A DNA stretch of 64,000 nt, taken from the NCBI GenBank assembly GCA_963847455.1, contig CAWKAG010000058.1, positions 5,644 to 69,643 on the forward strand. Direction: 5' to 3'. The translations under genes and the position numbers were made by a program. This stretch comes from an uncultured Acidimicrobiia bacterium (lineage in GTDB: Bacteria; Actinomycetota; Acidimicrobiia; Spongiisociales; JAENVV01). Positions 5,814-34,382 of the stretch are shown piece after piece (the first letter of the stretch is position 1; each line of letters opens with the position of its first letter). The notes below the pieces were generated by a model. The model saw only the letters and a list, made by a program, of their open reading frames with translations, searched no databases and was not told the DNA's origin.

Positions 5814-7471
5814 TACCCACCCCGATACTTGGAAGTGATCGGCAGTCGGCGATCCCTCCCGAAGGCTTTGACGGAGATCTTGACTCCAGGGGCCGACTGG
5901 CGGCGTTTGTACTCATTGCGGTCGACGAGGCCGCCAATCCGACGTACTACGGCTTCGTCATAGCCCTCCGCCACGATCGAACCAATCGACCGATCCTCCT
6001 CGACGTAGCGCTCAAGAATCGCATCGAGAATCGGATACTCGGGGAGGCTGTCCGAGTCCTTCTGATCGGGACGTAACTCGGCAGACGGAGCCTTGTCGAT
6101 AATCGACTGCGGGATCACTTCCGAGCGAGTATTCCTCCAACGCGAAAGCGCATACACCTGCATCTTGAAGACATCCTTCAGCACGGCAAATCCGCCAGCC
6201 ATATCGCCATAGAGCGTCGCATAGCCAACGGCCATTTCAGACTTATTGCCGGTCGCTACAACCATCCCGCCAAACTTGTTCGATACGGCCATGATCAACG
6301 CACCCCGAATCCGGGCTTGGAGATTCTCTTCGGCCACACCGAACTGTGTACCCGAGAACACCGGGTCCAACGCCTTGAGATGGGCCTGGAAGATGTCATC
6401 CATTGGAATCACATCGAAGCGGATTCCCAGACGGTCAGCCAGATCCTTCGAATCGTCGACCGAACCGTCACTAGAAAAACGTGACGGGAGCGATATGCCC
6501 CACACGTGTTCCGGGCCGAGGGCGTCGGCTGCCAGGGCGGCCGTCAGCGCCGAATCGATGCCACCCGACAAGCTGATGACTACGTGCTCAAAGCCGTTCT
6601 TGCGGACGTAATCTCCGAGCCCGAGTGTCAGGGCGGTGTATAGCTCTTCGAGCTGGCCCATCGGCGGGGTCAATCGGGCGGGTGGCTCAGGCGGCGAACC
6701 ACCGAGCGGCACGTCGACCACAAATCGATCTTCAACGAATTGCGGAGATCGGTGAAGCAGCGTTCCGTCGCCGTCGACAACCACCGACCCACCGTCAAAG
6801 ACCAGTTCGTCCTGACCCCCAACCAGATTGACGTAGACGAGGGGAACGCCGGCCGCCCTGGTCCGCCCGATCAGCATCTGCTCACGGCCCGCTGCTTTGC
6901 CGAAGTCATACGGTGAAGCGTTGATGTTGATGAGTAGTTCCGCACCAGCTGCCGCCTGCTGGGCCGGCGGACCGTCGGCAATCCAGATGTCTTCGCAGAC
7001 AGACACGCCGACCGCAAGGCCGAACATCGTGTGCAAGTCAGCCGGTGCGCCCCCGCGAACGAAGTAGCGGTTCTCATCAAACACGCCATAATTCGGTAGC
7101 AAGACCTTGTGATAGGTCCCCACAATTTTGCCCTGATGCAAGATGGCCGCCGCGTTCGCCACCTTCCTCGAATTGGCGTCGTCGGGTTCCTCGTCTGCCT
7201 CATCGGCCCGGTCGACGAACCCAACTACGGCAACGATGTCACCGACGTGGTCGGCTATTTCCTGGAGGGCATCGAGATTGGCCGAAACAAAACCATCACG
7301 GAGCACGAGATCTTCGGGCGGGTAGCCAGAGATGGACAGCTCAGGAAACACGACCACCTGAGCCGATTCGCCCTTGGCCCAGGCAACGGTCTCAATGATT
7401 CGTTTGGTATTGGTTTCAAGATCCCCAACTGTCAGATTCAGCTGGGCACCGGCGATCCGGATGTGGTCCAC
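5813..7471 (-). CDS. nadE: Glutamine-dependent NAD+ synthetase
   Basis: 552-aa ORF. N-terminal CN-hydrolase domain (VVVFPELSISGYPPEDL, VSVCEDIW) fused to an NAD synthetase domain with the SLSGGIDS PP-loop. Confidence 0.92.
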   Translation of the reverse strand: MDHIRIAGAQLNLTVGDLETNTKRIIETVAWAKGESAQVVVFPELSISGYPPEDLVLRDGFVSANLDALQEIADHVGDIVAVVGFVDRADEADEEPDDANSRKVANAAAILHQGKIVGTYHKVLLPNYGVFDENRYFVRGGAPADLHTMFGLAVGVSVCEDIWIADGPPAQQAAAGAELLININASPYDFGKAAGREQMLIGRTRAAGVPLVYVNLVGGQDELVFDGGSVVVDGDGTLLHRSPQFVEDRFVVDVPLGGSPPEPPARLTPPMGQLEELYTALTLGLGDYVRKNGFEHVVISLSGGIDSALTAALAADALGPEHVWGISLPSRFSSDGSVDDSKDLADRLGIRFDVIPMDDIFQAHLKALDPVFSGTQFGVAEENLQARIRGALIMAVSNKFGGMVVATGNKSEMAVGYATLYGDMAGGFAVLKDVFKMQVYALSRWRNTRSEVIPQSIIDKAPSAELRPDQKDSDSLPEYPILDAILERYVEEDRSIGSIVAEGYDEAVVRRIGGLVDRNEYKRRQSAPGVKISVKAFGRDRRLPITSKYRGG

Positions 7472-7533
7472 GGCGCAAGCCTATCGCGGCTCGACGCCAT
7501 GCGGGTTCGACCCCTCGTGGTGGGTCACTAAGA

Positions 7534-8691
7534 TTGACGCTCATGTTCACCCTCCAATCAGATCTTGTCGACGCGGCCGTCCGCTTACGTCGCGATCTGC
7601 ATCGCAATCCCGAACTCGGATATCAGGAAACCAGCACCACCGAAGCGGTCGCGGCCGCCCTGGACATCCCCGGCATTTCGCTCACGCGTCGATCTGGCAC
7701 CGGATTGATTGCCGACGTCGGATCGGGCGGTCGCAGAGTGGCGTTCCGGGCAGACCTCGACGCCCTTCCAATCAACGAGCTCACTGAAGTTCCCTACGCC
7801 TCCACCGTGCCGGGCATCATGCATGCCTGCGGTCACGACGCCCACGCCGCGATCGGAGTAGCGATTGCCCAACATCTCGCCGCCGTCGACCTGCCAGGGC
7901 GAGTCCGTTTCATCTTCCAACCGGCCGAGGAAAGTTTTCCGGGTGGTGCCAAACCGCTCGTTGCCGAGGGTGTTCTTGAGGACGTCTCCTCCATCCTGGC
8001 GTTCCACATCGACCCAAGCCTCGAGGTCGGAAAGATCGGTCTCAAAGCCGGCGCCATTACGAGCTCGTCTGACCGGTTCGAGATCACCCTGTCGGGTCCC
8101 GGTGGGCACACCGCTCGCCCGCATGAGACCGTCGACTTACTGCACGCCGCCGGTCGCATGCTTACCGACCTCCCCGCCCAATTCGCCAGGAGTATCGACG
8201 CGCGAATCCCGGTCGCCATGGTCTTCGGCCAGATCGCCGGGGGCGCCGCCGACAATGTGATCCCGACCGACGTAACCATGTCGGGCACGTGTCGGGTCCT
8301 CGACCAGGGAACCTGGGAGACGATTCCCGAGCGCCTCGAGCGTCTCGTGCAAGCCATCATTTCGCCATCAGGAGCCATCGCCAAACTGACGTACACCCGT
8401 GGCATAGCTCCGGTAGTCAACGATCCTGCGACGCTGGCACTGGCCGCCGCCGCGATCCAGAAAGAACTCGGACCCGGTTCGACAACCAGTACCGACGCCT
8501 CGATGGGGGCAGAAGACTTCTCCTGCTATCTCCAGGAGATCCCTGGCGCTCTGTTGCGCCTTGGTGCCTGGGACGGTTCGTCGGACAAGACCGCGTTGCA
8601 CTCGGCCTATTTCACGCTCGATGAACAATCGATCGAGATTGGCGTGCGGGCCGGAGTGGTATCGCTGCTCGGGCTTCTCGCCGCCCCGTGA
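7534..8691 (+). CDS. M20D family amidohydrolase (N-acyl-amino acid amidohydrolase / hippurate hydrolase-like)
   Basis: 385-aa ORF with RRDLHRNPELGYQE, MHACGHDAH and FIFQPAEE motifs typical of M20D peptidases. Confidence 0.85.
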   Translation: MTLMFTLQSDLVDAAVRLRRDLHRNPELGYQETSTTEAVAAALDIPGISLTRRSGTGLIADVGSGGRRVAFRADLDALPINELTEVPYASTVPGIMHACGHDAHAAIGVAIAQHLAAVDLPGRVRFIFQPAEESFPGGAKPLVAEGVLEDVSSILAFHIDPSLEVGKIGLKAGAITSSSDRFEITLSGPGGHTARPHETVDLLHAAGRMLTDLPAQFARSIDARIPVAMVFGQIAGGAADNVIPTDVTMSGTCRVLDQGTWETIPERLERLVQAIISPSGAIAKLTYTRGIAPVVNDPATLALAAAAIQKELGPGSTTSTDASMGAEDFSCYLQEIPGALLRLGAWDGSSDKTALHSAYFTLDEQSIEIGVRAGVVSLLGLLAAP

Positions 8692-9242
8692 CGAGCGATT
8701 ATCCGCTCCCAGAAGGCTTGCCCGCCCCGGTCGACGATGGGGCGGCTGATCATCTGATCGGGCGAGCAATGCCCCGGCTGGCGTTCTCCTCCACCGGAGG
8801 CGATGCCGTCGATCTGGCAACGCAGCCCGGCAGAACGATTGTCTATCTCTATCCGAAGACCGGTCGACCAGGCGTCGAGATGCCCGAAGGTTGGGATGCC
8901 ATACCTGGAGCACGCGGCTGCACACCGGAATCGTGTGGGTTTCGCGATCACTATCAGGACATCATCAACGCCCGGGCTTCCGTGTTCGGATTCTCAAGCC
9001 AGGACACTGCCTACCAGTCGGAGATGACCAAACGCCTTGAGTTGCCCTTCCCGGTCCTTTCGGACCCGGAATTCCTGCTGGACGGCTCGCTCAACTTGCC
9101 GACGTTTGAGGCGGCTGGCGAACGGCTCTACTCGCGGCTCACGATGTCAATCCTGAACGGCTCGATCGAGCACGTCTGGTATCCGGTCTTCCCGACCGAC
9201 ACGCACGCCGAAGTCGTCGTCGACTGGCTCGCTGCTCGTTAG
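8688..9242 (+). CDS. Redoxin / peroxiredoxin-like thiol-disulfide oxidoreductase
   Basis: 184-aa ORF overlapping the upstream stop (ATGA-type coupling). Thioredoxin-fold pattern with GCTPESCGFRDHY around the redox Cys pair. Confidence 0.7.
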   Translation: MTSDYPLPEGLPAPVDDGAADHLIGRAMPRLAFSSTGGDAVDLATQPGRTIVYLYPKTGRPGVEMPEGWDAIPGARGCTPESCGFRDHYQDIINARASVFGFSSQDTAYQSEMTKRLELPFPVLSDPEFLLDGSLNLPTFEAAGERLYSRLTMSILNGSIEHVWYPVFPTDTHAEVVVDWLAAR

Positions 9243-9348
9243 AGGTCGATGCAGGGTTGGCGCCGGCATTGCTCCCCTGAGACAGAGCGACCGAGGGAGT
9301 CCCGCCGAATCGGGCGACCCCGACGGCCGGCCATGGCAGGATGTCGCC

Positions 9349-11145
9349 ATGCCAACATCGCATCGTCCGACTGCATGGGTCCTGAGTGCCCTCATCATCG
9401 GCACGGTCGCGGTCGACCCCTTCGGATTCGCGCCATTCGGTCCCATCAAGTGGGTGATCGTCACAACCGCCGCTTTCGGGGCATTGTGGCTGGCGATGGC
9501 CGCCAAGTTGCCGGTTCATCGCCCGAGCTTGCGGGGATGGCTGGCGTTCCTGTCGTGGGGCTTGTTCGTGAGTGTTCTGGCTCTCGATCCGGTGCACACG
9601 TGGATCGGAACGCCTGATCGCCGCTTGGGGCTGGTAACCATTGCGGGTTTTATGGCCGCCTTCTTGGCCGGTCAGAGCTTGCGAAGTCGCGGCATCTCAA
9701 CGCTGAGCCACAGCTTTGTTGTCGGTCTTTGGATCATGGTGGTGACTGCGGCGTTCGAAGCGGCCGGAGCCTTCTCTGCGCCTTTCGACTTTCCGGGAAG
9801 TCGACTCGGTGGCCCATTCGGAACTCCCGCCTACCTGGGAGCGGCACTCGTACTGTTCCTTCCCATCGTCTTCGCCGTCGGTCCATCGCTCGAAGGCCGA
9901 GCGTGGCGGATGGCCGCCCGTTTCGGCGCCATCGGAGGAGTCGTGGTGTTGCTCGGCACCCAGACGAGGGGGGCGCTGATTGGCGGCGCTGCCGCCGCGG
10001 CTATCACCTACCCGGCATGGGCCAGATGGGCAAGGGTCAACCGGACGCCACTCGCCGCGTTGGTGGTGGTCTCCGTCGCCCTGCTCTCGTTCTCCAATCT
10101 GGGTAGTCGACTCGTTGACGCAGCGGATTTCGCCGACGGTGCCGCAGCCGGCCGCCTGGCCGAGTGGTCAACCGGCATCGACGCCATTGGCACCTCCCCG
10201 CTTTACGGGGTGGGGTTCGAGGGATACCGGGTGACGTTTCCTCAAGTTGTGGACGTCGACTACGTCCGAGCCTACGGGCGCGAGTTCGCCACCGATCGTG
10301 CTCACAACGGACTGATCGATGTCACGATTTGGACCGGCCTGGTCGGCGGCGCTTTCTACCTTGCCGCCATGGGCTTTCTCCTCCGGCGCGCCTGGCAGGC
10401 GAGCCGGCTCGGGGATTCATGGCTGGTTGGGTTCAGTGGAGCGCTGGTCGGTTATGTCGTTCAACAACAATTTCTGTTCCCGGTCGCCGAACTCGACGGA
10501 GCGTTCTGGGTGACGGCCGGGGTGCTGGTTGCGCACACCCAACCGGCGATGGCAAGTCGGACCCTGCCGCGCACGGCGCGCTTTGTGGCGCTGCTACTAG
10601 CCGCTGGGGTCGCGACGTTCGGCGTCACCGACCTGGCGGCCGACCATCTCGTGAAGGGGGCGTCGAGTGAAGACCTGAGCGGCTACGAGGCCGCCGTCAA
10701 CCTCCGACCGGAGTCCATTCGCTATCAGTTGTTGGCAGCCAACGCCAACCCCAATCTCGAACCGGCGATCTACCACATCGAACAGGCTCACGCCGTCTCC
10801 CCCGGCGACCCGATCATTGCAATAAGGCGAGGCGAGCTCTTGTCGGTTCGAGCCGCCCTCACCGGAGCTGCCTCCGATATCGCAGTCGCCCTGGCGGCTT
10901 GGCGAGAACTCGGCTCTACGGACGTCAACCACCCAACGGTCCAACTAGCCCTGGGCGCAGCCGAGATCGTGGCAGGAAACGAGTCCGAGGCCGAGGCCGC
11001 CTGGAAACAAGCAGAGGTCCTGGCTCCCCTGAGTCCGGAGCCCGCTGGCAATCTGGCGATCTTGTATCGCTCACAAGGCCGCTACGCAGAGGCGGAGGTT
11101 GCGCAGCAGAGATCTGACGACCTTGAGAAAGCGGCCGAAAAATAA
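9349..11145 (+). CDS. O-antigen ligase (Wzy_C)-like polytopic membrane protein with C-terminal TPR repeats
   Basis: 598-aa ORF with about 10-12 predicted TM helices and a large loop containing GVGFEGYR...RAHNGLIDV typical of the O-antigen ligase family. The C-terminal roughly 170 aa are TPR-like (AEAAWKQAEVLAPLSPEPAGNLAILYRSQGRYAEAE). Confidence 0.75.
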   Translation: MPTSHRPTAWVLSALIIGTVAVDPFGFAPFGPIKWVIVTTAAFGALWLAMAAKLPVHRPSLRGWLAFLSWGLFVSVLALDPVHTWIGTPDRRLGLVTIAGFMAAFLAGQSLRSRGISTLSHSFVVGLWIMVVTAAFEAAGAFSAPFDFPGSRLGGPFGTPAYLGAALVLFLPIVFAVGPSLEGRAWRMAARFGAIGGVVVLLGTQTRGALIGGAAAAAITYPAWARWARVNRTPLAALVVVSVALLSFSNLGSRLVDAADFADGAAAGRLAEWSTGIDAIGTSPLYGVGFEGYRVTFPQVVDVDYVRAYGREFATDRAHNGLIDVTIWTGLVGGAFYLAAMGFLLRRAWQASRLGDSWLVGFSGALVGYVVQQQFLFPVAELDGAFWVTAGVLVAHTQPAMASRTLPRTARFVALLLAAGVATFGVTDLAADHLVKGASSEDLSGYEAAVNLRPESIRYQLLAANANPNLEPAIYHIEQAHAVSPGDPIIAIRRGELLSVRAALTGAASDIAVALAAWRELGSTDVNHPTVQLALGAAEIVAGNESEAEAAWKQAEVLAPLSPEPAGNLAILYRSQGRYAEAEVAQQRSDDLEKAAEK

Positions 11146-11178: not shown

Positions 11179-11712
11179 ATGGGAGCAAACGTGGCAACAT
11201 CACCAAAATTTGAGGGGATCGAAGTCGTAGTTGCGCGAACCGCGCATCCGGACTTCCCGAGCTTTTATCAGGAGAACTACCGCAGCGTCACCAAGGCACT
11301 CACTGCCACCATTCGCGACATTGACCTCGCCGGCGAAGCAACCGACGAAGCCATGGCGAGAGCGTATGCCAATTGGGCAAAGATCGAGCGGTATGACAAC
11401 CCGGCCGGATGGGTATACCGGGTCGCCCTGAACTGGGCGATTTCGGTTCAACGCCGCCGCAATCGGCTATCCAAGTTCAAAACCGAAACCGTCAGTGAAT
11501 CACCCCAGGTGGTCGAACCGGGCTTGTATCAAGCGCTCGGCAAGCTCGACCCCAAGCTTCGCTCGGTGGTCGTGTGCCGGTACCTGTTCGATTGGACCAC
11601 CGAACAGACCGCCGAAGCCCTCGCCATCCGCACCGGAACTGTCAAAAGTCGCCTCCATCGAGCACTCGAACAGCTCGCCAGCCAACTAAGCCATCTGAAG
11701 GACCCCGCATGA
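11179..11712 (+). CDS. ECF-type RNA polymerase sigma-70 family factor
   Basis: 177-aa ORF. Region 2 (AGWVYRVALNWAISVQRRRNR) and region 4 HTH (RYLFDWTTEQTAEALAIRTGTVKSRLHRALEQL). Confidence 0.85.
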   Translation: MGANVATSPKFEGIEVVVARTAHPDFPSFYQENYRSVTKALTATIRDIDLAGEATDEAMARAYANWAKIERYDNPAGWVYRVALNWAISVQRRRNRLSKFKTETVSESPQVVEPGLYQALGKLDPKLRSVVVCRYLFDWTTEQTAEALAIRTGTVKSRLHRALEQLASQLSHLKDPA

Positions 11713-13487
11713 GCCTCGAAGACGAACTCCGCCAACACTTCAAGTCAGAACCAGGAACCCTGCCGACCGGCCTCGGCCCCGAAGCCATCATGCGCATCGG
11801 CCAAGAGCACCGCAAAAGCAGCCGGATTCGTTCGGGCGCAGCCGGATTCGTAGTCGTAAGTGCGGCCGTTTTGGCCGTACTCGCTCTGCCCAATATCGGC
11901 ACCGATCGGACCACCGACCCGTCCGACATCCAGGCCGGTCCCAACACCACTCTGGCACCCAGCGGCCCGGTCGGATCGAACCCGATCAACCGCACCCCCA
12001 TCGAAACCCATACCGTTGATGCGGCCGGGCTTACCTGGACGATCTCGGACCCGACGTTGGCATGGTCCCGGCGCCTCTATGCCGACAGCTCTGGGTTCTA
12101 CGCCCTGTCGACCGCCCCTGGCACAACCTGGGAGGACGCCACAGAAGCAAATGGCTACCGGGTTCCCGAGGCGATCTACTACTCATCGGATGGGAGCAAC
12201 TGGACGGTCAGGGAACTCCCGAACGATCAGTATGCGGCTGACTTTGGCGCGAGCGACGGCACCATGTATCTGCTGGGAACTGCTCCAGCAACCAGCGACC
12301 CGAACGGGCCGGTAGATCTGTGGATCGACACATCCAGCGACCTCGGCCAGACATGGTCCCGCCAAACCATGCCCATGAGCGATCACAATCCGCCCGAAGG
12401 ACTAAATGACTACGTCTGGTCTAATACCGCAACCAGCCTGGCCGCCCAAGGCACCACGGTCGTTGCCTCGGTCAGTACGACCTACTGGGTCGATGTGTAT
12501 CGCCTCGCCCCTGAGGAGTATCAGGTGGACGGGTTCGATATTCGCCAAACCGACACCGGAATGGACATCTTCGACATGAGCGCCGTGCGAGACCTGGAAC
12601 GAGCCTGCGAGGATGCCTGGTACCACTACGAAACGGACACGCCTGCCGAGGATCGCGTAGATGACTTCGTGCCGGATGCCTGCCGGGTGGTCGAAGACGC
12701 CTGGCAAGACCCCCTCAATCTCGTGTATTCGGCTACGTGGGCCGAGTTGGGAATCGGTGACATCGGCCCGCTCTCATACTCGGATTTGTATGTATCCGAC
12801 AACGGAGCCGCCCCGGTCAAAATCGACACGCCATTCTCCAGCAATGTGCAGGGTTTGCAGTTATCCGCCACGTCGGCCGGATTCCACGCCACCGTGTGGG
12901 GCCAGACGTTGACGACAAACCAGGAAGGCTGGGCTTCGGCGTTGTGGACGTCGGCCGACGGTCGCAACTGGTCTCGAACCCCTGTTCCGGAAGGCAGCTA
13001 CGAGGTAGCTCCGCTCGGATCGATCGGCAACCGGCTCGTCGCCACGGCATACAACGACACCGGCACTCAGGTCATGGTGCTTGACAACGGCACGTGGACG
13101 CCGATCAACATCGACGCAAGCCTCGGTCCGGTTCCGGACGGTCGCGACCGGTGGATCAGCCAGGGAGGCGCCGGAGAAGGCGGCGTGTGGCTCGTCGCCC
13201 AGACCACCACGTACCCCGAGGAGGGGACGGAACCTGCAGTCACGACGACCATTCCAGAAAGTGGCGAATACGCGGGCGAGCCACTCAAGCTTGACCTTCT
13301 TTTCTCGGAAGACCTCGTCAACTGGACGGTGATTGACCTCACCGAACTTCTCGGACCGGAAGCTCCTTCGAACGACTTATGGATCAATCAGATAGTTGTC
13401 AGCGACGAATCGGTCTACTTCACCGTCAGTGGCTACAACGCCGAGAGAAACGAGACCTACGCCGCTTCGGTTGTCGGCAAGAAGTAA
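11709..13487 (+). CDS. Single-pass membrane protein with extracytoplasmic Asp-box (BNR) beta-propeller-like domain; putative cognate anti-sigma/sensor partner
   Basis: The ORF track begins at 11574, but that part overlaps the sigma gene in another frame. The ATG at 11709 overlaps the sigma stop (ATGA). About 45 cytoplasmic residues, one TM helix (AAGFVVVSAAVLAVLALP), then at least 4 Asp-box motifs: SSDGSNW, SSDLGQTW, SADGRNW, SEDLVNW. Confidence 0.7.
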   Translation: MSLEDELRQHFKSEPGTLPTGLGPEAIMRIGQEHRKSSRIRSGAAGFVVVSAAVLAVLALPNIGTDRTTDPSDIQAGPNTTLAPSGPVGSNPINRTPIETHTVDAAGLTWTISDPTLAWSRRLYADSSGFYALSTAPGTTWEDATEANGYRVPEAIYYSSDGSNWTVRELPNDQYAADFGASDGTMYLLGTAPATSDPNGPVDLWIDTSSDLGQTWSRQTMPMSDHNPPEGLNDYVWSNTATSLAAQGTTVVASVSTTYWVDVYRLAPEEYQVDGFDIRQTDTGMDIFDMSAVRDLERACEDAWYHYETDTPAEDRVDDFVPDACRVVEDAWQDPLNLVYSATWAELGIGDIGPLSYSDLYVSDNGAAPVKIDTPFSSNVQGLQLSATSAGFHATVWGQTLTTNQEGWASALWTSADGRNWSRTPVPEGSYEVAPLGSIGNRLVATAYNDTGTQVMVLDNGTWTPINIDASLGPVPDGRDRWISQGGAGEGGVWLVAQTTTYPEEGTEPAVTTTIPESGEYAGEPLKLDLLFSEDLVNWTVIDLTELLGPEAPSNDLWINQIVVSDESVYFTVSGYNAERNETYAASVVGKK

Positions 13488-13550: not shown

Positions 13551-14084
13551 CTACGGGACGGCCGCGATGACCTCGTCGAGATCGGCGTGGTCTCCGGCGT
13601 GATCTTCGAAATCTGCATACAACAATTCGTCGCCGGGACCGATCACCAGCGTTGCTCCCAGTTGAAAAGGACGCCGCCCGGTCTTCTTTTGACGGTGCCC
13701 CGCAGCCGTACTCCGAATCCCTGCGGCAATCGCAGCCGGCTTGGCAAGCGAAACGAGTCCGAGTCGTCTTGTCCCTACCAACTCCGCCGCTGATCCGTCC
13801 TCATCGAGGAGAACCTCGAAGGGCACCCGCTCATCTTCAATGAATGCCTGGGCGTAGCGCTTTCCGCCCGTACCAATTGCCAGCACCCTGGCACCTGTAG
13901 CAGTGACCTCTTCGTACCTGTCGCGGACCTGACCGGCCCGCTCGCGGCAGGTCAGTCAGCCGAAGTGCCTCAGGAACAAGATAACGGCAGGCTGATCGGC
14001 CCATCGGTCTCCGAGACGGTGTTCACCGCCGTCGGAATCGATCAGGATATGTTCTCCTAAAGCTGCGACATCAAACAAACTCAT
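13551..14084 (-). CDS. Peroxiredoxin-like (Prx-like2 / AhpC-TSA_2 type) protein with in-frame TGA at the CxxC position; candidate selenoprotein (UxxC)
   Basis: Reading from the ATG at 14084 gives MSLFDVAALGEHILIDSDGGEHRLGDRWADQPAVILFLRHFG-TGA-LTCRERAGQVRDRYEEVTATGARVLAIGTGGKRYAQ... in the same frame as the track ORF 13551..13886. The TGA (13956-13958) sits where this family has the first Cys of FxRxxGCxxCR. The start overlaps the upstream gene stop (ATGA at 14081-14084). Confidence 0.55.
13929..13955 (-). promoter_or_regulatory. Stem-loop immediately 3' of the in-frame UGA (candidate bacterial SECIS element)
   Basis: RNA CUGACC-U-GCC-GCGAGCG-GGC-C-GGUCAG. A 6-bp lower stem plus a 3-bp upper stem starts at the first nucleotide after the UGA. 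Confidence 0.35.
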
Positions 14085-15031
14085 GGACCGAACGAATCCA
14101 TCGGCGTGACATTGTCTTCATCAGGAAGGTCGATGACGATGTTCTCGCCGTAGTCATACATGTCGTACTGCATGCCCAGAACCGGGACGTCGGCTACTCC
14201 CTCGTATGAAATCACGTAGCGATAGACGAGATTGTCGTCGCTGATCCAGACATCCACCGGCATCTGCTCAATCCCCGAGTCGCGCAGTTCTTGAGCCGAA
14301 ACGTCGCCAGTCATGGTCTCAAGATCTTCGACATCAAACAGGATCGTGTAGTGAGTCGTTGATGCACCGCGGATTGTCTCGGTTCCGACGACGTTCACAT
14401 CTCCTCCGGCGTCCAGGAAGGAGGCCAGCGCGTTGGCGGGGGTGCTGTTGCCGACGCCGGCTATTCCCGCGCTGTCGATGGCGTCGTCACTGGGTAATAC
14501 AACCCAGTCGGTCTGCACGCCCATGATGGCGAACAGGGGGAACTTCATGTACGCAGTCTCGCCATCGAAGATGAAACGAACGTCAGACAGGTCTCCGAAG
14601 GCTGACAGGTCGATTCCCTCGGAAGCGGCCGCCCCCTCGAATGCTTCGCTCATGTCCATCTTCATTTCCATGCGCTCGCTGTTGAAGGCACCCTCGATAT
14701 AGATCGTGAACGGTTCAGGCAATTCCTCAGATGCCGCCAGCATCATGGTCGCTTCGAAACGCCCTGACTCGGCCAACCCCGAAGCAACCGCCGCCTCGCG
14801 GAACATCGCCAGATCATCAGAAGTGGCAGCTTCGACAACGGTCGTTGTCGTAGTGGTGGACTCGACCGGAGCGGCCTGCGTCGTGGTAGTCGTCTCCGGC
14901 GCCGCGACGCTATCTCCGGTGGCGGCAGACGTGGTGGTGTCGACCGGTAACTCGGTCACATCGGTGGCGCCACCCCCGCAGGCGACAAGGACGAGCATTA
15001 ACGCAGTCAGATAAATCAGTTTCACAAGCAA
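14081..15031 (-). CDS. Hypothetical lipoprotein
   Basis: 316-aa ORF with lipobox (LMLVLVACGG), a Thr-rich linker (TTTTTQAAPVESTTTTTTVVE) and an acidic globular domain. Confidence 0.65.
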   Translation of the reverse strand: MLVKLIYLTALMLVLVACGGGATDVTELPVDTTTSAATGDSVAAPETTTTTQAAPVESTTTTTTVVEAATSDDLAMFREAAVASGLAESGRFEATMMLAASEELPEPFTIYIEGAFNSERMEMKMDMSEAFEGAAASEGIDLSAFGDLSDVRFIFDGETAYMKFPLFAIMGVQTDWVVLPSDDAIDSAGIAGVGNSTPANALASFLDAGGDVNVVGTETIRGASTTHYTILFDVEDLETMTGDVSAQELRDSGIEQMPVDVWISDDNLVYRYVISYEGVADVPVLGMQYDMYDYGENIVIDLPDEDNVTPMDSFGP

Positions 15032-15886: not shown

Positions 15887-17344
15887 CTAGTGGTTGATGA
15901 AGATCTCGTGGGCGGTCCGACTGCCGGTCATCCCGTTGATGATTTCGAGTTGAGCCGCACTCACCTGGGAGGGATGGTCGACCCCGCAGGCTCGGGCCAT
16001 TCGGCCGAGTTCAAAACGCATCGTCTGGATAAATCGACCGACTCGCAGCCCTTTGTCGGTCGGGTCGAGGCCCCGTTCCAGCCATTTCGAATTGGTCGCC
16101 ACCCCGGTCGGGCAGTGCCCGGTGTGACACCTCTGTGCCTGGATGCAGCCCGCCGCCATCATGGCTTCGCGCCCGACGTTGATCATGTCGACGCCGAGCG
16201 TCATAGCCAGCAAACCGCGGTCGGGTAGGCCCAGCCGACCTGAACCGATCCACATAACCCGGTCGGCCACGCCTCGCTGCGTAAAGACGTCGTGGACTCG
16301 CGGGAAAGCGTGAAGGAAGGGCAAGGCTACGTGGTCGGTGAAAGCAAGCGGACCCGCTCCGGTTCCGCCTTCGCCACCGTCAATGATGATGAAGTCGACG
16401 CCCCGCTCCCCGCTGACCATCTGATCAGCCAGGCCTTCCCAGAACTCGATCTCACCAACCGCTGACTTGATGCCGACCGGTAGACCCGTCTCGGAAGCGA
16501 GCGACTCGACAAAGTCGAGCATCGAGTCGACATCATGAAAAGAGCTGTGACCCGGCGGGCTGTGACAGTCCTCGCCGACCGGGACACCCCGGATCGCCGC
16601 GATCTCGGGGGTTACCTTCTTGCCGGGCAGCAAGCCCCCCAGACCCGGTTTGGCACCCTGGGATAACTTGACTTCGATGGCCTTCACCGGGAAGCGATCG
16701 ACGTTCTCGAGGAACCGACCCAGGTCAAAGTTGCCTGAGGAATCGCGGCAGCCGAAGTAGCCGGTCCCGATCTGCCAAACCAGGTCGCCTCCCTGATCGT
16801 GATAGGTCGTCAAGCCCCCTTCACCGGAGCCGTGCAGCGCCCCCGCCAGCTTGGCTCCCTTGTTCAGCGCAGTCACCGCCGCTCCCGACAAGGACCCGTA
16901 ACTCATCGACGAGATATTGACGAGGGAGGCAGGCGTGAAGGCTTTCGCCCGCTGGCGCGCGCCGCCAAGCACCTTGGCGGCCGGGACGGCCTGGCCTTTG
17001 TCGAATCCCATGTCTGGTTTGGGAAACGCCGCATGCTTGATGATGAGGTAGTTGCGCTGGATATCGAGGTCGTTATCGGTACCGAAGCCGAACAGGTTGT
17101 TCTGCTGTTTGGCCGATGCATAGATCCACCGACGCTGGTCCCGACTGAACGGCCGATCGGCGTCGTTTTCGGTAACGATGTACTGGCGTAACTCGGGGCC
17201 GATCTTTTCCAGCAGGTACCGAATGTGTCCGACGACCGGAAAGCTACGCAGGATGGCGTGTTTGGTTTGGATGAGATCGTAGATCAGCACGGCCAGCAGG
17301 AACGCCAGTATTCCAAAGCCAATCCAGGTCCACACGGCGGCCAT
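15887..17344 (-). CDS. FMN-binding glutamate synthase family protein (GltB domain-2-like)
   Basis: 485-aa ORF. N-terminal TM helix, then motifs ISSMSYGSLS, KLSQGAKPGLGG, DFIIIDGGEGGTGA and CHTGHCPTGVATN characteristic of the glutamate synthase-related FMN domain. Confidence 0.9.
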   Translation of the reverse strand: MAAVWTWIGFGILAFLLAVLIYDLIQTKHAILRSFPVVGHIRYLLEKIGPELRQYIVTENDADRPFSRDQRRWIYASAKQQNNLFGFGTDNDLDIQRNYLIIKHAAFPKPDMGFDKGQAVPAAKVLGGARQRAKAFTPASLVNISSMSYGSLSGAAVTALNKGAKLAGALHGSGEGGLTTYHDQGGDLVWQIGTGYFGCRDSSGNFDLGRFLENVDRFPVKAIEVKLSQGAKPGLGGLLPGKKVTPEIAAIRGVPVGEDCHSPPGHSSFHDVDSMLDFVESLASETGLPVGIKSAVGEIEFWEGLADQMVSGERGVDFIIIDGGEGGTGAGPLAFTDHVALPFLHAFPRVHDVFTQRGVADRVMWIGSGRLGLPDRGLLAMTLGVDMINVGREAMMAAGCIQAQRCHTGHCPTGVATNSKWLERGLDPTDKGLRVGRFIQTMRFELGRMARACGVDHPSQVSAAQLEIINGMTGSRTAHEIFINH

Positions 17345-20705: not shown

Positions 20706-20812
20706 TGTGGCATCGCCTCAAGGATGCCGGAACTCCTCTATCGGTCATGGCTTCGAAGAATGCCGATTCCGAGTAGCCTCGAATCACTGGGAAGCACAGG
20801 GAGACCGTCCAG

Positions 20813-23800
20813 ATGGCGGCACCACAACACGCGCTCTATTTACCAAGGCTCGTCCTTGATTGGCTGCGCGAAAAACCCCAGGATGCCTCTGGATCGGTGC
20901 ACGGGACGCTGATCTTCGCCGACGTGTCGGGATTTACAGCGCTCTCGGATCGACTCGCCATCGAGATGGGGCGCGGCGGGTCCGAGAAGGTCACTTCGGT
21001 TATGAATGAGGCATTCTCCGAACTCGTTGAGATCGTCTTCCTGGAACATGGCGACCTCCTCCGTTTCGGTGGCGACGCCCTGGTGGCGCTCTTTACAGAA
21101 GAACACCACTCGGGTCGAGCCTGTCGGGCAGCCATCGACATGCGTGATGCCATCGGCGACATCGATGCCGGAGATATCGACCTCGACATCTCCATCGGGA
21201 TCGCCAGCGGAGACATAGATGTCAACCTGATCGGCCATGGGCACCGCGAGATGGTCCTCTCAGGGCCCACCGTCGACGAAGTGATCGGCGCTGAATCCGC
21301 CGCCAGCGCCGGACAGATCTTCGTCTCGGCCGTACTCGCCGATGAGATTTCCGAGGTCGCCACCGAACACGAGTCCGGGTTTTGGGAATTGGAAGACGAC
21401 CCCGACAGCGCTCCCCTACTGGACGAACCGGACGACCTCACGTTCTCAACGGACAATTCGTTCTCCGACTTCATTTCGCCGGACTTCCGGGGCCTGTTGA
21501 CCCTGACGTTGCAGCAGGGTGAGCACCGGCCAGCTTCGATCGGATTCGTGAAGTTTTCCGGCATTGCCGCCCTCAGCGACGATGAACGGGAGGTGGCGCT
21601 CGACCACCTGTTTGCTGCGGTGACCAGCGCCTGCCACGAGTTCGACGTCGCATATGTTTCCAACGACATCGACAAGGACGGCGGCAAGTTCGTTCTCGCT
21701 GCGGGGGTGCCGAGGCGAACGGCCGGTGAGGAAGGAATGGCGCTGGCGCTCCACAGCATCGTGTCTCAACCTCACAACCTCAAGGTCTCGGGAGGATGCG
21801 CACGGGGGTATGTGTTCTCAGGCGATCTTGGTGCCCCGTCGCGGCGAGTCTTTACCGTCATGGGCGACACGGTCAACCTGTCGGCCCGTCTGGCTGCCGC
21901 TGCTCACGGTGGCCAGGTCCTCATCACCGAGGCCGCCCTCGAACGAAGCCGCGGTGCCTTCGACACCAATCGGCTCGACCCGATTTCACTGAAGGGCAAA
22001 TCGAAGGACATTGCACCGTTTGAGATATTGTCGGCGGAGACGACCGACTCGACGGCCGCCGCAATCCCCCTTTTCGGGCGCGACGTTGAGCTGCGCAGCA
22101 TCACCCGACTGATACGCGATGGAGTCACCGGTTCCGGGACGGTGATAGCCCTCGTCGCCGCCGACGGAATCGGAAAGGGTCACCTGGCCAAGGCTGCCAT
22201 GGAAAAGCTCGACCCGGATATCCGCCGCATCACCGTAGCAATCGGGGCCAGCCAACCGCACAGCGCCAACCGAAGTCTCATGGCCGCTCTGCTGAACATC
22301 GAACATGGAGAATCCACGCTTGCCCAGCTGACGGCGGCGGTGGAAGGCCACAAACCCGAACTCGCCGAATGGCTGCCTCTGCTCGCTCGCAACTGGTCCA
22401 TCGATCTACCCGACACCGAAACCACCGCCACCCTCGGCTCCGAGTTCGTCGCAGCTCGGATCGCTCGAGTGTCCGCCGAACTCGTATTGGCCGCCGCCGG
22501 CGAGGACCCGACGGTCATCCTCATCGAGGATCTCGATCAAGCCGATCAGCCGTCCCGAGCCTTTGTGCACGAACTGGTAAGTCAGATCCAAGACCGGCCC
22601 TGGTCGCTCATCGTCACTTCCCTTACCGATCCAGAATGGGGCTCAGACGCCACCGTTGTCACGATCGACCCGTTCGATGCGCCAACCGCCCAGGGCTTCG
22701 TCCGCTGGGTGTTGGGCGACAAAGCGCTACCGGCGTCCTCGATCGCCCTCATCGTCGAACGAGGCAAGGGAAACCCCTACATGCTGAGCGAACTTACGCT
22801 CAGCGCAGTCGAAGGCGGCGCCGTTCCCGAATCGATCGAAGCGGCCGCGCTATCAAAACTCGACCGACTCGACCCCCGCGACAAGCAGCTCCTCATGTAC
22901 GCCGCCGTCTTCGGGACCGAAGCACGGATCGACCTGCTCGCTTCTCTCCTTCCCGAAATCGCCTCGGCCATCGAAGACTCAGAGTCCTGGAACCGGCTAG
23001 CCGGATTCATCGATACGTCGGTCATCGGAAAGATCCGCTTCCTCGATCCCCTGACCCGTGATGTCGCCTACGGTATGTTGCCTCAGCGTCGCCGACAAGA
23101 AATCCATGAACTGGTCGGCAATGCCATCGAGAAACGAGCCCGGCGGCGTCCAGAGCGTTTCGTCGACGATCTCTCGTATCACTATCACCTTGCCCACGAT
23201 TGGGATCGGTCCTGGAATTACTCCCGGATGGCCGCCGAACGGGCCGAGCACGCCTTCGCCCTGGTGGTGGCTAGTCGATTCTGGCGCCGGGCGATCGAGG
23301 CGGCCGAATCGATGGCTTCCCCGCCTGACGAACTGCCCGAAGCCTACGAGCAGCTCGGCGATGCCCACGAGCGGGCCGGCATGTTCCCCGAAGCCGAGTC
23401 GGCGTACGAACGCGCAACGGAGTTGACCGACGACCACGAAACGATGAACCGGCTTTCTCACAAACAGGGCCTTGTTGACATTCGGCTCGGGTTTCCCGAC
23501 CGGGCCAAAGAGCGATTCGACACGATTCTGGCCCTGCAGGGGACTCCGACTGTCGACCGCCTCGAAGCGATGCTTGGCATCGCCGGCTTGGAAATTCGCA
23601 CCGGCCACCCCGCCCAGGCAGCCGAATGGTGCGACAAGGTGCTCGACGAGGCCGGTGCCGAAGGGTTTCCCAAACAACGCGCCCGGGCTTATCACATCAT
23701 GGCGCTGGCTTCGGCCGACGCTGGTCTGCCGGATGCCGAAGAACAAGCGAAACAAGCGCTTTACATTTACGAGGGACTCGACGACAAGGCAGGCGTTTCC

Positions 23801-24502: not shown

Positions 24503-24528
24503 CACGGCGCAGGCCGGAATAGTCCTAG

Positions 24529-24562
24529 GCGAGACCGGTCGGAGGCGGCCGACCGGTCTCGC
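24529..24562. terminator. 14-bp perfect inverted repeat between convergent genes (terminator-like hairpin)
   Basis: GCGAGACCGGTCGG-AGGCGG-CCGACCGGTCTCGC in the 75-nt gap between the cyclase stop (24502) and the giant gene stop (24578). No strong U-tract. Confidence 0.45.
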
Positions 24563-24577
24563 ACAGGTTCTTTAGGA

Positions 24578-34069: not shown

Positions 34070-34382
34070 TAAATTTCCCCTTCATTAAGCCCTACCCCCA
34101 GTGAAGCACCACCGATGGCCTTTTCGACCCTACCAACCACTGAGAGCGAGGGAAAGGGTCGACAGGGGATTTCTATGCACCCGACCGATGACTACTAGAC
34201 ACATGTAAGGACCGAAATATGCCAGGAATCCTTCCAAGAGAGCTGGCGACGCCACTTTCTGTGGGGCATCGGCTCCGTTCGGGCAAATGACTAGTCATCT
34301 AGCGCTTGAAACGAATGAACCTCCAGTTCACCGCCCGACACTGTCGATACATCAGTAGACGACAGATTGCGGGGATAGGGCC

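What the first reader, a model, noticed from the sequence alone, without database searches (positions are those of the whole stretch)
13551..14084. Candidate selenoprotein: Prx-like2 redox protein with TGA replacing the first Cys of CxxC, followed by a hairpin
Translation from the ATG at 14084 gives a typical thioredoxin-fold N-terminus ending in AVILFLRHFG-TGA-LTCRERAG. It stays in frame with the track ORF 13551..13886, for 177 codons in total. In this family (PRX_like2 / AhpC-TSA_2, the same family as eukaryotic PRXL2/SelL-type proteins) the motif is F.R..GC..CR, so the TGA at 13956-13958 falls exactly on the redox-active Cys codon. UxxC forms of Prx-like and AhpC/TSA-family proteins are established in bacteria. 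Directly after the UGA the mRNA can fold as CUGACC-U-GCC-GCGAGCG-GGC-C-GGUCAG, a position compatible with a bacterial SECIS. The other disruptions in this window are all +/-1 indels, whereas this one is an in-frame substitution-type stop at a functionally meaningful codon. The gene is translationally coupled to the upstream lipoprotein gene (ATGA at 14081-14084).
Basis: partly seen in the sequence, partly recalled or inferred. Interest (0 to 1): 0.7.

Follow-up and report, generated by a model that had tools for sequence, protein, structure and literature searches.

The report
Unannotated selenocysteine Prx-like redox protein gene
This gene encodes a small thioredoxin-fold redox protein whose catalytic cysteine is replaced by selenocysteine, read from an in-frame TGA with help from a conserved RNA hairpin; this kind of protein is already known, but gene callers cut this subfamily short in public databases.

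Summary
The minus-strand ORF 14084..13551 has 177 codons and one in-frame TGA (13958..13956), in FLRHFG-[TGA]-LTC-RE. The protein belongs to AhpC-TSA_2/PRX_like2. Its nearest solved structure is human PRXL2B, and the TGA aligns with that protein's first CxxC cysteine.

The TGA is not an error or a pseudogene. The same column is TGA in 72 of 73 species-level genomes (32-95% protein identity) and TGT in one. Full-length relatives read RHFGCxxC. Sequence upstream of the TGA evolves as coding in the same frame.

It is the overlapping hairpin GCGGGCC-GGUCA-GGUCCGC (13941..13923). This hairpin shows suppressed synonymous variation and compensatory G-C to A-U changes, meets all four published bacterial SECIS criteria, and is replaced by different hairpins at the same place in other clades.

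Relatives link the gene to Sec machinery: selA-selB sit directly upstream in L047 and on the same contig in L056, and tRNA-Sec lies within about 8 kb in three loci. The window's own genome could not be checked.

Verdict: a genuine UxxC selenoprotein gene and a new member of a known kind. Interest is modest. The practical value is in correcting annotation.

The parts
13551..14084 (-). Complete selenoprotein gene: 177 codons including Sec43, ATG 14084 to TAG 13551. It encodes a PRX_like2 / AhpC-TSA_2 thioredoxin-fold protein.
   Evidence: Searches give the frame. Pfam AhpC-TSA 48.2 bits, AhpC-TSA_2 47.4 bits, Redoxin 32.8 bits, all above their cut-offs; full-length alignment to PRXL2B (9us9), E 4.9e-9; orthologues align across residues 1-177.
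13956..13958 (-). Sec codon UGA (codon 43), at the position of the first, nucleophilic Cys of the CxxC motif.
   Evidence: TGA in 72 of 73 orthologous loci and TGT in one; full-length homologues read RHFGCxxC; the codon aligns with the first Cys of LRRFGCVVCR in PRXL2B; the title of entry 9usa names that residue C44.
13947..13949 (-). TGC codon for Cys46, the presumed resolving Cys of the U-L-T-C motif.
   Evidence: Cys is invariant in 48 of 48 clade sequences, with free TGC/TGT variation; it aligns with the second Cys of the PRXL2B CxxC (C47 per the 9usa entry title).
13923..13941 (-). Bacterial SECIS core hairpin 5'-GCGGGCC GGUCA GGUCCGC-3'. The stem is 7 bp, the apical loop is 13934..13930, and 21 nt lie between the UGA and the loop.
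   Evidence: it is part of the MFE fold; 96.7% of cells are paired, with compensatory GC to AU changes at two pairs, and 0 of 500 shuffles reach the observed score; third-codon-position entropy is about 0 only at codons +6 to +10.: -13.0 kcal/mol and all four criteria of the published bSECIS model are met.
13929..13955 (-). It is mutually exclusive with the SECIS hairpin. It is present in this sequence but not conserved.
   Evidence: no compensatory change, with unpaired cells at 8, 7, 14 and 5 of 48 sequences in four pairs; the loop starts 13 nt from the U of UGA, i.e. 10 nt of spacing, which is outside the 16-37 nt range.
14081..15031 (-). Upstream 316-aa putative lipoprotein gene (N-terminus ...LVLVACGGG). 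Its TGA stop overlaps the selenoprotein's ATG (ATGA).
   Evidence: Searches give the sequence and ORF; no Pfam family; the pairing is conserved only in L001-L003. Its TGA is read as a true stop, so TGA has not been reassigned.

Best explanation
The ORF 14084..13551 is one intact gene for a cytoplasmic, roughly 19 kDa thioredoxin-fold protein of the PRX_like2/AhpC-TSA_2 family. It is a homologue of animal PRXL2A/B and SelL. Its active-site motif is U43-L-T-C46.

During translation, the UGA at 13958..13956 is decoded as selenocysteine. The hairpin GCGGGCC-GGUCA-GGUCCGC lies 21 nt downstream, inside the coding sequence, where it also encodes E-R-A-G-Q-V-R. It acts as the bacterial SECIS that recruits SelB-GTP-Sec-tRNA(Sec) to the ribosome.

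In the finished protein, Sec43 sits at the N-cap of helix alpha-1. There it acts as the nucleophile toward an oxidised substrate (a peroxide, disulfide or endoperoxide-type substrate). Cys46 then resolves the intermediate into an intramolecular selenenylsulfide, and a thioredoxin-type reductant recycles the enzyme.

Shown here: the conserved in-frame UGA, the Sec/Cys pair, coding constraint on both sides, the conserved and covarying hairpin, the fold and the active-site position, and linkage to selA/selB/selC in relatives.

Inferred: actual Sec insertion in this organism, the catalytic cycle and the physiological substrate.
For: (1) Family and active site. Pfam AhpC-TSA, AhpC-TSA_2 and Redoxin all score above their cut-offs, and the best NCBIfam match is SelL-related redox protein. 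The nearest solved structure by sequence is PRXL2B 9us9, where LRRFG-C-VVC-R aligns with LRHFG-U-LTC-R. An AlphaFold model of the natural Cys orthologue P0001 (pLDDT above 90 in the core) puts that residue between strand 32-37 and helix 43-54. Its top fold matches are PRXL2B, then BCP/PrxQ and ResA.

(2) Conserved UGA. The aligned codon is TGA in 72 of 73 species-level genomes at 32-95% protein identity. These cover Acidimicrobiia, Actinomycetes, Thermodesulfobacteriota, Desulfobacterales, Desulfomonilia and Bacteriovoracaceae. Gene callers start dozens of relatives at 'M-TCRERAG', the codon after the TGA.

(3) Cys homologues. P0001, P0094, L063 and 17 of 17 full-length representatives have RH[FY]GCxx[CS].

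(4) The upstream 42 codons are coding. Third-position entropy far exceeds that of positions 1 and 2, and residues are invariant with free synonymous change.

(5) SECIS. Synonymous variation collapses only at codons +6 to +10. There are compensatory G-C to A-U changes in L015, L044 and L047. Other clades have sequence-unrelated hairpins at the same place, with loops AGUU, AGGC and AGGUA. All four bSECIS criteria are met by 67 of 73 TGA loci against 12% of control positions. Two of the three Cys forms lack the hairpin, and the third (L079, TGT) keeps it as a fossil.

(6) Sec machinery. In L047, selA (TIGR00474, 416 bits) and selB (TIGR00475, 343 bits) end 58 nt upstream of the orthologue. selA-selB lie on the same 109-kb contig as orthologue L056. 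tRNA-Sec lies within about 8 kb in L048, L049 and L052.

(7) TGA is the commonest ordinary stop in the window, ending 26 of 50 long ORFs.
Against: No selA, selB, selD or tRNA-Sec is present in the 64-kb window. The source genome is not on record, so the Sec trait of this particular organism is inferred from relatives. The closest is L001, at 95% protein and about 90% nucleotide identity.

No Rfam SECIS model matches. This is expected, because bacterial SECIS elements are poorly represented there.

The fold z-score of the local RNA is unremarkable at -0.8, so thermodynamics alone would not single out the hairpin.

Within the window's clade only two of the seven pairs vary, so within-clade covariation rests on few events.

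The protein scores below the curated cut-off of the SelL-related NCBIfam model (87.6 against 120). No experimental evidence of selenium incorporation exists.
Confidence: 0.92

Rival explanations
1. The gene is a selenoprotein gene, but the SECIS is the hairpin the reader drew (CUGACC-U-GCC-GCGAGCG-GGC-C-GGUCAG, 13955..13929), which starts directly after the UGA.
For: The hairpin exists in the window. In isolation it is slightly more stable than the core of the other one: -14.7 against -13.0 kcal/mol. It is paired in 92% of cells across the clade.
Against: There are no compensatory changes. Wherever the 5' arm varies synonymously (CTGACG, CTGACA, ATCACC, CTCACC, GTGACT, CTTACC), the pair is simply broken: 8, 7, 14 and 5 unpaired cells. 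Its 3' arm is invariant because it forms the loop and 3' stem of the other hairpin. Its loop GCGAGCG starts only 10 nt after the UGA, outside the 16-37 nt range, and lacks the G[G|U] pattern. Other clades have no counterpart at that position.
Confidence: 0.04
2. The TGA is a nonsense mutation or a base-calling error, so the locus is a pseudogene or an assembly artefact. Only the downstream 111-aa ORF, if anything, is expressed.
For: The closest relative L001 comes from a Microflora Danica MAG, and its Glu_synthase gene appears frameshifted. Gene callers do annotate only the C-terminal fragment.
Against: The same TGA occurs at the same codon in 72 of 73 genomes from many independent projects, down to 32% identity. 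Both sides of the TGA are under purifying selection in one frame. The C-terminal fragment alone would lack strand beta-1 and the whole active site of the fold.
Confidence: 0.01
3. The UGA is bypassed without selenocysteine. Options are near-cognate read-through (Trp or Cys), a reassigned code, or termination followed by re-initiation that yields two polypeptides which associate.
For: UGA followed by C is a weak termination context (established knowledge), and most clade members have TGA-C. Many relatives have a GTG, ATG or TTG codon directly after the TGA. The Sec machinery could not be checked in this genome.
Against: TGA ends 26 of 50 long ORFs in the window, including the gene immediately upstream. 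The TGA coincides with the catalytic Cys column, not with a tolerant site. A conserved, covarying hairpin that fits the SelB-dependent SECIS model follows it. selA/selB/selC are physically linked to orthologues. In the window itself the codon after the TGA is CTG, which is not a start codon.
Confidence: 0.03

Closest known systems
Peroxiredoxin-like family (AhpC/TSA family) selenoprotein, cd02970 / pfam13911, UxxS motif. It was predicted in the Olavius algarvensis delta-proteobacterial symbiont and is listed in the prokaryotic selenoproteome reviews (PMC9312934; PMC13188914).
   Same: It has the same Pfam/CDD family (AhpC-TSA_2 / PRX_like2), with Sec at the first position of the xxC-type redox motif. 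The delta-proteobacterial members of the present family (L065, L068, L070-72) likewise lack the second Cys (U-x-F-A).
   Different: The window's protein and all Acidimicrobiia and Actinomycetes members have UxxC, not UxxS. I could not obtain the reference sequences (CAB1081847.1 / MDX2448127.1) for a direct comparison. The reviews do not list a UxxC form of this family, nor any actinobacterial occurrence of it.
Prx-like thiol:disulfide oxidoreductase selenoprotein (pfam00578, UxxC/UxxU; WP_010940744.1), from Kryukov and Gladyshev 2004 as cited in PMC1794560, PMC9312934 and PMC13188914.
   Same: It is a bacterial thioredoxin-fold, peroxiredoxin-like protein with a UxxC motif and an in-ORF SECIS. 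The window protein also hits pfam00578.
   Different: The window protein's best curated matches are AhpC-TSA_2 and SelL-related. The known distribution of that family was mainly Deltaproteobacteria.
Human PRXL2B (prostamide/prostaglandin F synthase; PDB 9us9, 9usa) and the PRXL2 family.
   Same: It is the closest solved structure both by sequence (E 4.9e-9, end to end) and by fold. The active-site register is identical: LRRFG-C44-VV-C47-R against LRHFG-U43-LT-C46-R.
   Different: PRXL2B uses Cys, not Sec. Identity is only about 22-24%. The bacterial substrate is unknown and is unlikely to be a prostaglandin endoperoxide. Residues 106-137 of the model are low-confidence.
Eukaryotic and marine SelL (a Prx-like selenoprotein with a UxxU diselenide motif), and NCBIfam NF040769 'SelL-related redox protein'.
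   Same: They belong to the same superfamily, and NF040769 is the best NCBIfam hit (7e-25). Sec lies in the CxxC-equivalent motif.
   Different: The motif here is UxxC, with one Sec, not UxxU. The score of 87.6 bits is below the curated cut-off of 120, so this protein is not a member of that NCBIfam subfamily.
E. coli fdhF-type bacterial SECIS and the consensus bSECIS model (Zhang and Gladyshev 2005, as summarised in PMC13188914).
   Same: It is a hairpin inside the ORF, with 21 nt between the UGA and the apical loop, a 7-bp upper stem and a 5-nt loop starting GGU. All four model criteria are met. From my own knowledge, the fdhF apical loop is also GGUC.
   Different: There is no sequence similarity outside the loop. 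No bulged U is evident. Binding by the cognate SelB has not been tested.

Membership tests
Bacterial selenoprotein gene (SelB/bSECIS-dependent UGA recoding) | An in-frame UGA that aligns with a conserved, redox-active Cys in homologues (a Sec/Cys pair) | tested here: met
   Cys homologues read RHFGCxxC, and the TGA falls on the first Cys.
Bacterial selenoprotein gene (SelB/bSECIS-dependent UGA recoding) | The UGA is conserved in orthologues of independent genomes, with coding conservation on both sides in the same frame | tested here: met
   72 of 73 loci have TGA; codon-position entropy shows coding constraint upstream and downstream.
Bacterial selenoprotein gene (SelB/bSECIS-dependent UGA recoding) | A downstream bSECIS with a 3-9 nt loop, a 4-16 bp stem, G in the first two loop positions, 16-37 nt spacing and MFE of -7.5 kcal/mol or lower (PMC13188914) | tested here: met
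   loop GGUCA, 7 bp, 21 nt spacing, -13.0 kcal/mol. 67 of 73 loci pass against 12% of controls. Covariation is and synonymous-site constraint.
Bacterial selenoprotein gene (SelB/bSECIS-dependent UGA recoding) | selA, selB, selC (tRNA-Sec) and selD present in the same genome | not testable with these tools
The feature is met in relatives: L047 has selA-selB adjacent, L056 has them on the same contig, and L048, L049 and L052 have tRNA-Sec nearby.
Bacterial selenoprotein gene (SelB/bSECIS-dependent UGA recoding) | Selenium demonstrably incorporated (75Se labelling or mass spectrometry) | not testable with these tools
   This needs an experiment.
Pfam PF13911 AhpC-TSA_2 / CDD cd02970 PRX_like2 (PRXL2 family) | Profile score above the curated gathering threshold | tested here: met
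   47.4 bits against a cut-off of 27. PF00578 scores 48.2 against 26.
Pfam PF13911 AhpC-TSA_2 / CDD cd02970 PRX_like2 (PRXL2 family) | A thioredoxin fold with a CxxC-type motif at the N-terminus of helix alpha-1 | tested here: met
   (model of the Cys orthologue P0001, with top PDB matches PRXL2B 9us9/9usa). One search gives the motif register.
NCBIfam NF040769 SelL-related redox protein | Score at or above the curated cut-off of 120 bits | tested here: not met
   87.6 bits. The protein is related to this subfamily but is not a member.
SelL (diselenide selenoprotein) | A UxxU motif with two Sec residues | tested here: not met
   there is a single TGA, and the motif is U-L-T-C.
Typical peroxiredoxin (PF00578, catalytic PxxxT/SxxC plus Arg) | Thr/Ser three residues before the peroxidatic Cys/Sec (the motif is from established knowledge of Prx enzymes) | tested here: not met
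   Reading the sequence: residue -3 from U43 is Phe40, and residue -3 from C46 is U43. The protein is Prx-like in fold but lacks the canonical Prx motif.
Prx-like thiol:disulfide oxidoreductase selenoprotein (WP_010940744.1 family) | Orthology to the reference Geobacter protein | not tested
   The reference sequence could not be retrieved with these tools. Only the shared pfam00578 hit and the UxxC motif are known.

The most novel reading that the evidence does not exclude
The UxxC form of the PRX_like2/AhpC-TSA_2 family may be a major selenoprotein of Acidimicrobiia and related Actinomycetota that has not yet been catalogued. It is present in dozens of species-level genomes and is almost always the Sec form rather than the Cys form. 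It sometimes sits in one transcription unit with selA-selB (L047), so it could be one of the client proteins that keeps the Sec-decoding trait alive in these abundant environmental lineages. Public databases hold it only as N-terminally truncated 'peroxiredoxin-like' fragments that lack the active site.
Probability: 0.35. Interest if true: 0.45.

Novelty: new member of a known kind. Interest (0 to 1): 0.33.

Why it matters
The biology is not surprising to a selenoprotein specialist. Thioredoxin-fold UxxC selenoproteins with an in-ORF SECIS have been predicted in bacteria since 2004, and a cd02970/pfam13911 selenoprotein with a UxxS motif is already in the catalogues.

The result matters in three practical ways.

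1. It shows that an entire, widespread subfamily is systematically mis-annotated. Hundreds of database entries start at 'MTCRERAG' or later and lack the catalytic residue. This distorts functional and pangenome analyses of Acidimicrobiia.

2. It supplies a clean, covariation-supported SECIS for a high-GC actinobacterial lineage. That could be used to build a covariance model and find more selenoproteins in that lineage.

3. The near-exclusive use of Sec over Cys in this clade, the single fossil-SECIS Cys revertant and the selAB linkage make it a convenient natural system. It could be used to ask what selective advantage Sec gives a PRXL2-type enzyme.

Tried and rejected
- Rfam found nothing relevant, either at gathering threshold on the whole window or in a permissive local scan. 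The only hit was a chance 14.5-bit match to cow-rumen-1. This is uninformative, because bacterial SECIS elements are poorly represented in Rfam.
- ARAGORN on the window and tblastn with E. coli SelA, SelB and SelD against the window found nothing, so the machinery question could not be settled for this genome.
- An exact look-up of the window's 111-aa product found no record, so the source genome was not identified.
- A scan of the window for other in-frame TGAs flanked by open, high-GC3 stretches gave only antisense or noise candidates. It also missed the true gene at my GC3 threshold, so I abandoned it as a detector.
- Gene-neighbourhood analysis for functional hints showed that the lipoprotein pairing is confined to L001-L003. 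No family-wide neighbour is conserved.
- The promoter/terminator scan found nothing above the shuffle expectation.
I modelled the natural Cys orthologue P0001 instead.
- The local RNA fold z-score of -0.8 does not by itself support a structure. I therefore relied on comparative evidence instead.
Full report
**1. The observation**

On the minus strand, an ATG at 14084 opens a reading frame that runs to TAG at 13551. It has 177 codons and one internal stop, TGA at 13958..13956 (codon 43). The context is ...AVILFLRHFG-TGA-LTCRERAG.... The mechanical ORF list splits it into a 42-aa ORF and a 111-aa ORF in the same frame. The ATG overlaps the TGA stop of the upstream 316-aa gene (ATGA, 14084..14081).

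**2. Family**

With Cys placed at the stop, the protein scores above Pfam's curated thresholds for AhpC-TSA (48.2 bits), AhpC-TSA_2 (47.4) and Redoxin (32.8).

Its best NCBIfam match is NF040769 'SelL-related redox protein', at 87.6 bits. That is below the curated cut-off of 120, so the protein is a relative of that subfamily and not a member.

The closest solved structure by sequence is human prostamide/prostaglandin F synthase (PRXL2B, 9us9; E 4.9e-9). It aligns from residue 1 to 173, with LRRFG-C-VVC-R opposite LRHFG-[TGA]-LTC-R. A sister entry (9usa) is the C44S/C47S active-site mutant.

An AlphaFold model of the natural Cys orthologue P0001 has mean pLDDT 77, and its core is above 90. It places the equivalent Cys42 between strand 32-37 and helix 43-54, the canonical thioredoxin-fold position. 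Foldseek returns PRXL2B first, then BCP/PrxQ peroxiredoxins and ResA-type thiol-disulfide oxidoreductases.

**3. Is the TGA real and conserved?**

A search of 5.8 billion proteins gave 321 hits. Of the 120 best, all but two are fragments of 92-144 aa that cover only the C-terminal 57-76% of the query. Most of those that carry a source name come from Acidimicrobiia MAGs. Many begin 'M-TCRERAG', i.e. at the codon right after the TGA position. The only two full-length hits read FLRHFG-C-VTCRE (P0001) and FLRHFG-C-HLCRE (P0094).

A scan of one genome per GTDB species returned 74 loci. This scan used C-terminal peptide patterns, so it was blind to the TGA. In the 73 loci that align over the site, the codon is TGA in 72 and TGT in one (L063). 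Protein identity ranges from 95% down to 32%. The taxa include Acidimicrobiia, Actinomycetes, Thermodesulfobacteriota, Desulfobacterales, Desulfomonilia and Bacteriovoracaceae.

At the level of 50%-identity clusters, the wider family has 1022 representatives with E of 1e-3 or better. Most of the best 150 are full length. All 17 full-length ones that I aligned carry RH[FY]GCxx[CS].

This pattern of TGA in some lineages and Cys in others at the catalytic column defines a Sec/Cys pair. It excludes a sequencing error or a private nonsense mutation.

**4. Is the part upstream of the TGA coding?**

In 48 sequences of the window's clade, codons -33 to -1 show the coding signature in the same frame. 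Third-position entropy is typically 1.2-2.0 bits, against about 0-1 at positions 1 and 2. Several residues are invariant (G, W, L, F, L, R, H, F, G) yet use several synonymous codons.

TGA has not been reassigned in this organism. It terminates 26 of the 50 ORFs of at least 250 codons in the window, including the gene immediately upstream.

**5. The SECIS**

It chose GCGGGCC-GGUCA-GGUCCGC (13941..13923). The two hairpins overlap and exclude each other.

Comparative data decide between them.

- *Synonymous constraint.* Across the clade, the string CGGGCCGGTCAGGTCCG is invariant apart from a coupled G-to-A / C-to-T change at one stem pair in four sequences. Synonymous variation vanishes only at codons +6 to +10 (CGG GCC GGT CAG GTC), where third-position entropy is 0.41, 0, 0, 0 and 0.34. 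Neighbouring Arg, Cys, Thr and Glu codons vary freely.
- *The 13941..13923 hairpin.* 96.7% of cells are paired. Pair 30/42 changes G-C to A-U in L015, L044 and L047, and breaks once (L040). Pair 27/45 shows GC, AU and GU, with 10 unpaired cells. None of 500 column shuffles reaches the observed pairing or covariation score, and every slid register is far worse.
Wherever its 5' arm varies, the pair is lost, giving 8, 7, 14 and 5 unpaired cells. The shuffles are indistinguishable from the observed values.
- *Other clades.* They carry sequence-unrelated hairpins at the same place. Clade B has C[G/U]CGC-AGUU-GCG[C/U/G]G 28 nt from the U of the UGA, including a G-C to U-G double change. The delta-proteobacterial clade has GGCAGC-AGGCU-GCUGCC or AAGCAGC-AGGUA-GCUGCUU at 19-20 nt.
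- *Published criteria.* The published bSECIS model requires a 3-9 nt loop, a 4-16 bp stem, G in the first two loop positions, 16-37 nt spacing and MFE of -7.5 kcal/mol or lower (PMC13188914). The window's hairpin passes all four: loop GGUCA, 7 bp, 21 nt, -13.0 kcal/mol. So do 67 of 73 TGA-bearing sequences under a strict contiguous-stem rule, against 132 of 1095 (12%) control positions in the same genes.
- *The Cys forms.* L063 (TGT) and L080 (TGC) have no qualifying hairpin. In L080 the residues that encode the hairpin have also drifted. L079 lies inside the window's clade and differs by a single A-to-T change (TGA to TGT). It retains the entire hairpin. That is the 'fossil SECIS' situation described for recent Sec-to-Cys conversions (PMC1794560).

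**6. Sec machinery**

The window contains no tRNA and no SelA, SelB or SelD homologue. Its source genome is not in the look-up collection.

In relatives the link is direct.

- In L047, genes scoring as equivalogs of SelA (TIGR00474, 416.5 bits against a cut-off of 267.9) and SelB (TIGR00475, 342.9 against 242.25) lie immediately upstream on the same strand. selB ends 58 nt before the orthologue's ATG, with a GGAGGAG Shine-Dalgarno sequence in between.
- In L048, L049 and L052, a tRNA-Sec with anticodon UCA lies within about 8 kb.
- Contig JBBDHV010000031.1 (109 kb) carries both selA-selB and orthologue L056, whose core hairpin, 7 bp plus the GGUCA loop, is identical to the window's.
- SelB is common in Acidimicrobiia MAGs. 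A 2026 preprint reports universal Sec machinery in Actinomarina, another Acidimicrobiia lineage.

**7. Mechanism**

*Shown here.* The gene is one uninterrupted coding unit with a UGA at the catalytic position, and a conserved SECIS-type hairpin follows it.

*Inferred from established knowledge of bacterial Sec insertion.* SelB-GTP-Sec-tRNA(Sec) binds the hairpin's apical part as the ribosome reaches the UGA, and Sec is inserted as residue 43.

*Inferred from the fold and from PRXL2/thioredoxin-family chemistry.* Sec43 sits at the helix N-cap and attacks an oxidised substrate. Cys46 resolves the intermediate to a selenenylsulfide, and a thioredoxin-like reductant regenerates the enzyme.

The protein lacks the canonical peroxiredoxin T/S-x-x-C motif: residue -3 from U43 is Phe. 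I therefore favour a thioredoxin-like or PRXL2-like reductase over a classical peroxidase, but the substrate is unknown.

No signal peptide is evident, so the protein is probably cytoplasmic. That is my reading of the N-terminus and was not tested with a tool.

The overlap with the lipoprotein gene (ATGA) suggests co-transcription here. The pairing exists only in L001-L003, so it is not informative for the family.

**8. Comparison with what is known**

UxxC 'Prx-like' thiol:disulfide oxidoreductases are long-standing predicted bacterial selenoproteins. The selenoproteome reviews also list a 'Peroxiredoxin-like family/AhpC-TSA family protein' of cd02970/pfam13911 with a UxxS motif, from a delta-proteobacterial symbiont. 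SelL is the UxxU eukaryotic/marine relative.

The present gene is therefore a new member of a known kind. It has the same fold family, the same Sec position and the same recoding mechanism.

Neither of the two reviews I read shows the UxxC form of the pfam13911/cd02970 family, its dominance in Acidimicrobiia, or its linkage to selAB. [quoted passage not shown] I could not retrieve the reference proteins of the catalogued families for a direct orthology test.

**9. Verdict**

I put confidence that this is a genuine selenoprotein gene at about 0.92. The residual doubt is that the Sec machinery of this particular genome is unseen, and that nothing has been shown experimentally.

Interest is modest at 0.33. 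This is a well-documented example of a known class. Its practical value is for annotation, and it provides a clean comparative system: a nearly all-Sec clade, one fossil-SECIS revertant and a selAB-linked copy.

Noticed in passing
window 20792-34287: A segment of about 13.5 kb has no counterpart at the matching junction of the closest relative L001, which is about 90% nucleotide-identical and collinear on both sides. It holds three very large ORFs. ORF 20813-24502 (+) is 1229 aa, with an adenylate/guanylate cyclase domain, AAA_16 and MalT-like TPR repeats. ORF 24578-30445 (-) is 1955 aa, with only a weak PKD hit. ORF 30991-33801 (-) is 936 aa, with no Pfam hit. This may be a strain-variable island.
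   Followed up: partly
L079 122-180 (JGI 3300045962 Ga0484979_0467021; protein P0001): This is a Cys form (TGT) inside the window's own clade. It differs from the Sec forms by one base at the Sec codon and retains the complete SECIS hairpin GCGGGCCGGTCAGGTCCGC. It looks like a 'fossil SECIS', suggesting a very recent Sec-to-Cys conversion or a strain polymorphism.
   Followed up: yes
L047 6845-10519: selA (6845-8191), selB (8179-9942) and the TGA-containing Prx-like orthologue (10001-10519) are co-directional and nearly contiguous, so they look like one operon. That would couple a client selenoprotein to the Sec-insertion genes.
   Followed up: yes
L065, L068, L070, L071, L072 (Sec codon positions listed): The Thermodesulfobacteriota, Desulfobacterales, Desulfomonilia and Bacteriovoracaceae orthologues read FLRHFG-U-[MI]-F-A, so they have no resolving Cys. 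This resembles the UxxS form catalogued from the Olavius symbiont. Their SECIS hairpins have loops AGGCU or AGGUA and sit 4-5 nt closer to the UGA.
   Followed up: partly
public protein records P0002-P0120: Nearly all database entries for this subfamily are N-terminally truncated gene calls of 92-144 aa. They start at the codon after the TGA or at a later GTG/ATG, they are named peroxiredoxin-like, AhpC/TSA or hypothetical, and they lack the active site. This is a systematic annotation error.
   Followed up: yes
L001 7365-8192 compared with window 15887-17344: The Glu_synthase-domain gene is an intact 485-aa ORF in the window. In L001 it gives only a 276-aa HSP at 99% identity, which suggests a frameshift in that Microflora Danica MAG assembly.
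   Followed up: no
window 11179-13487: An ECF-type sigma factor gene (11179-11712, Sigma70_r2/r4) is followed immediately by a 593-aa ORF (11706-13487) with no Pfam match. That ORF is conserved in L001 and L003, and its position suggests a possible anti-sigma or partner protein. It converges on the selenoprotein gene.
   Followed up: no
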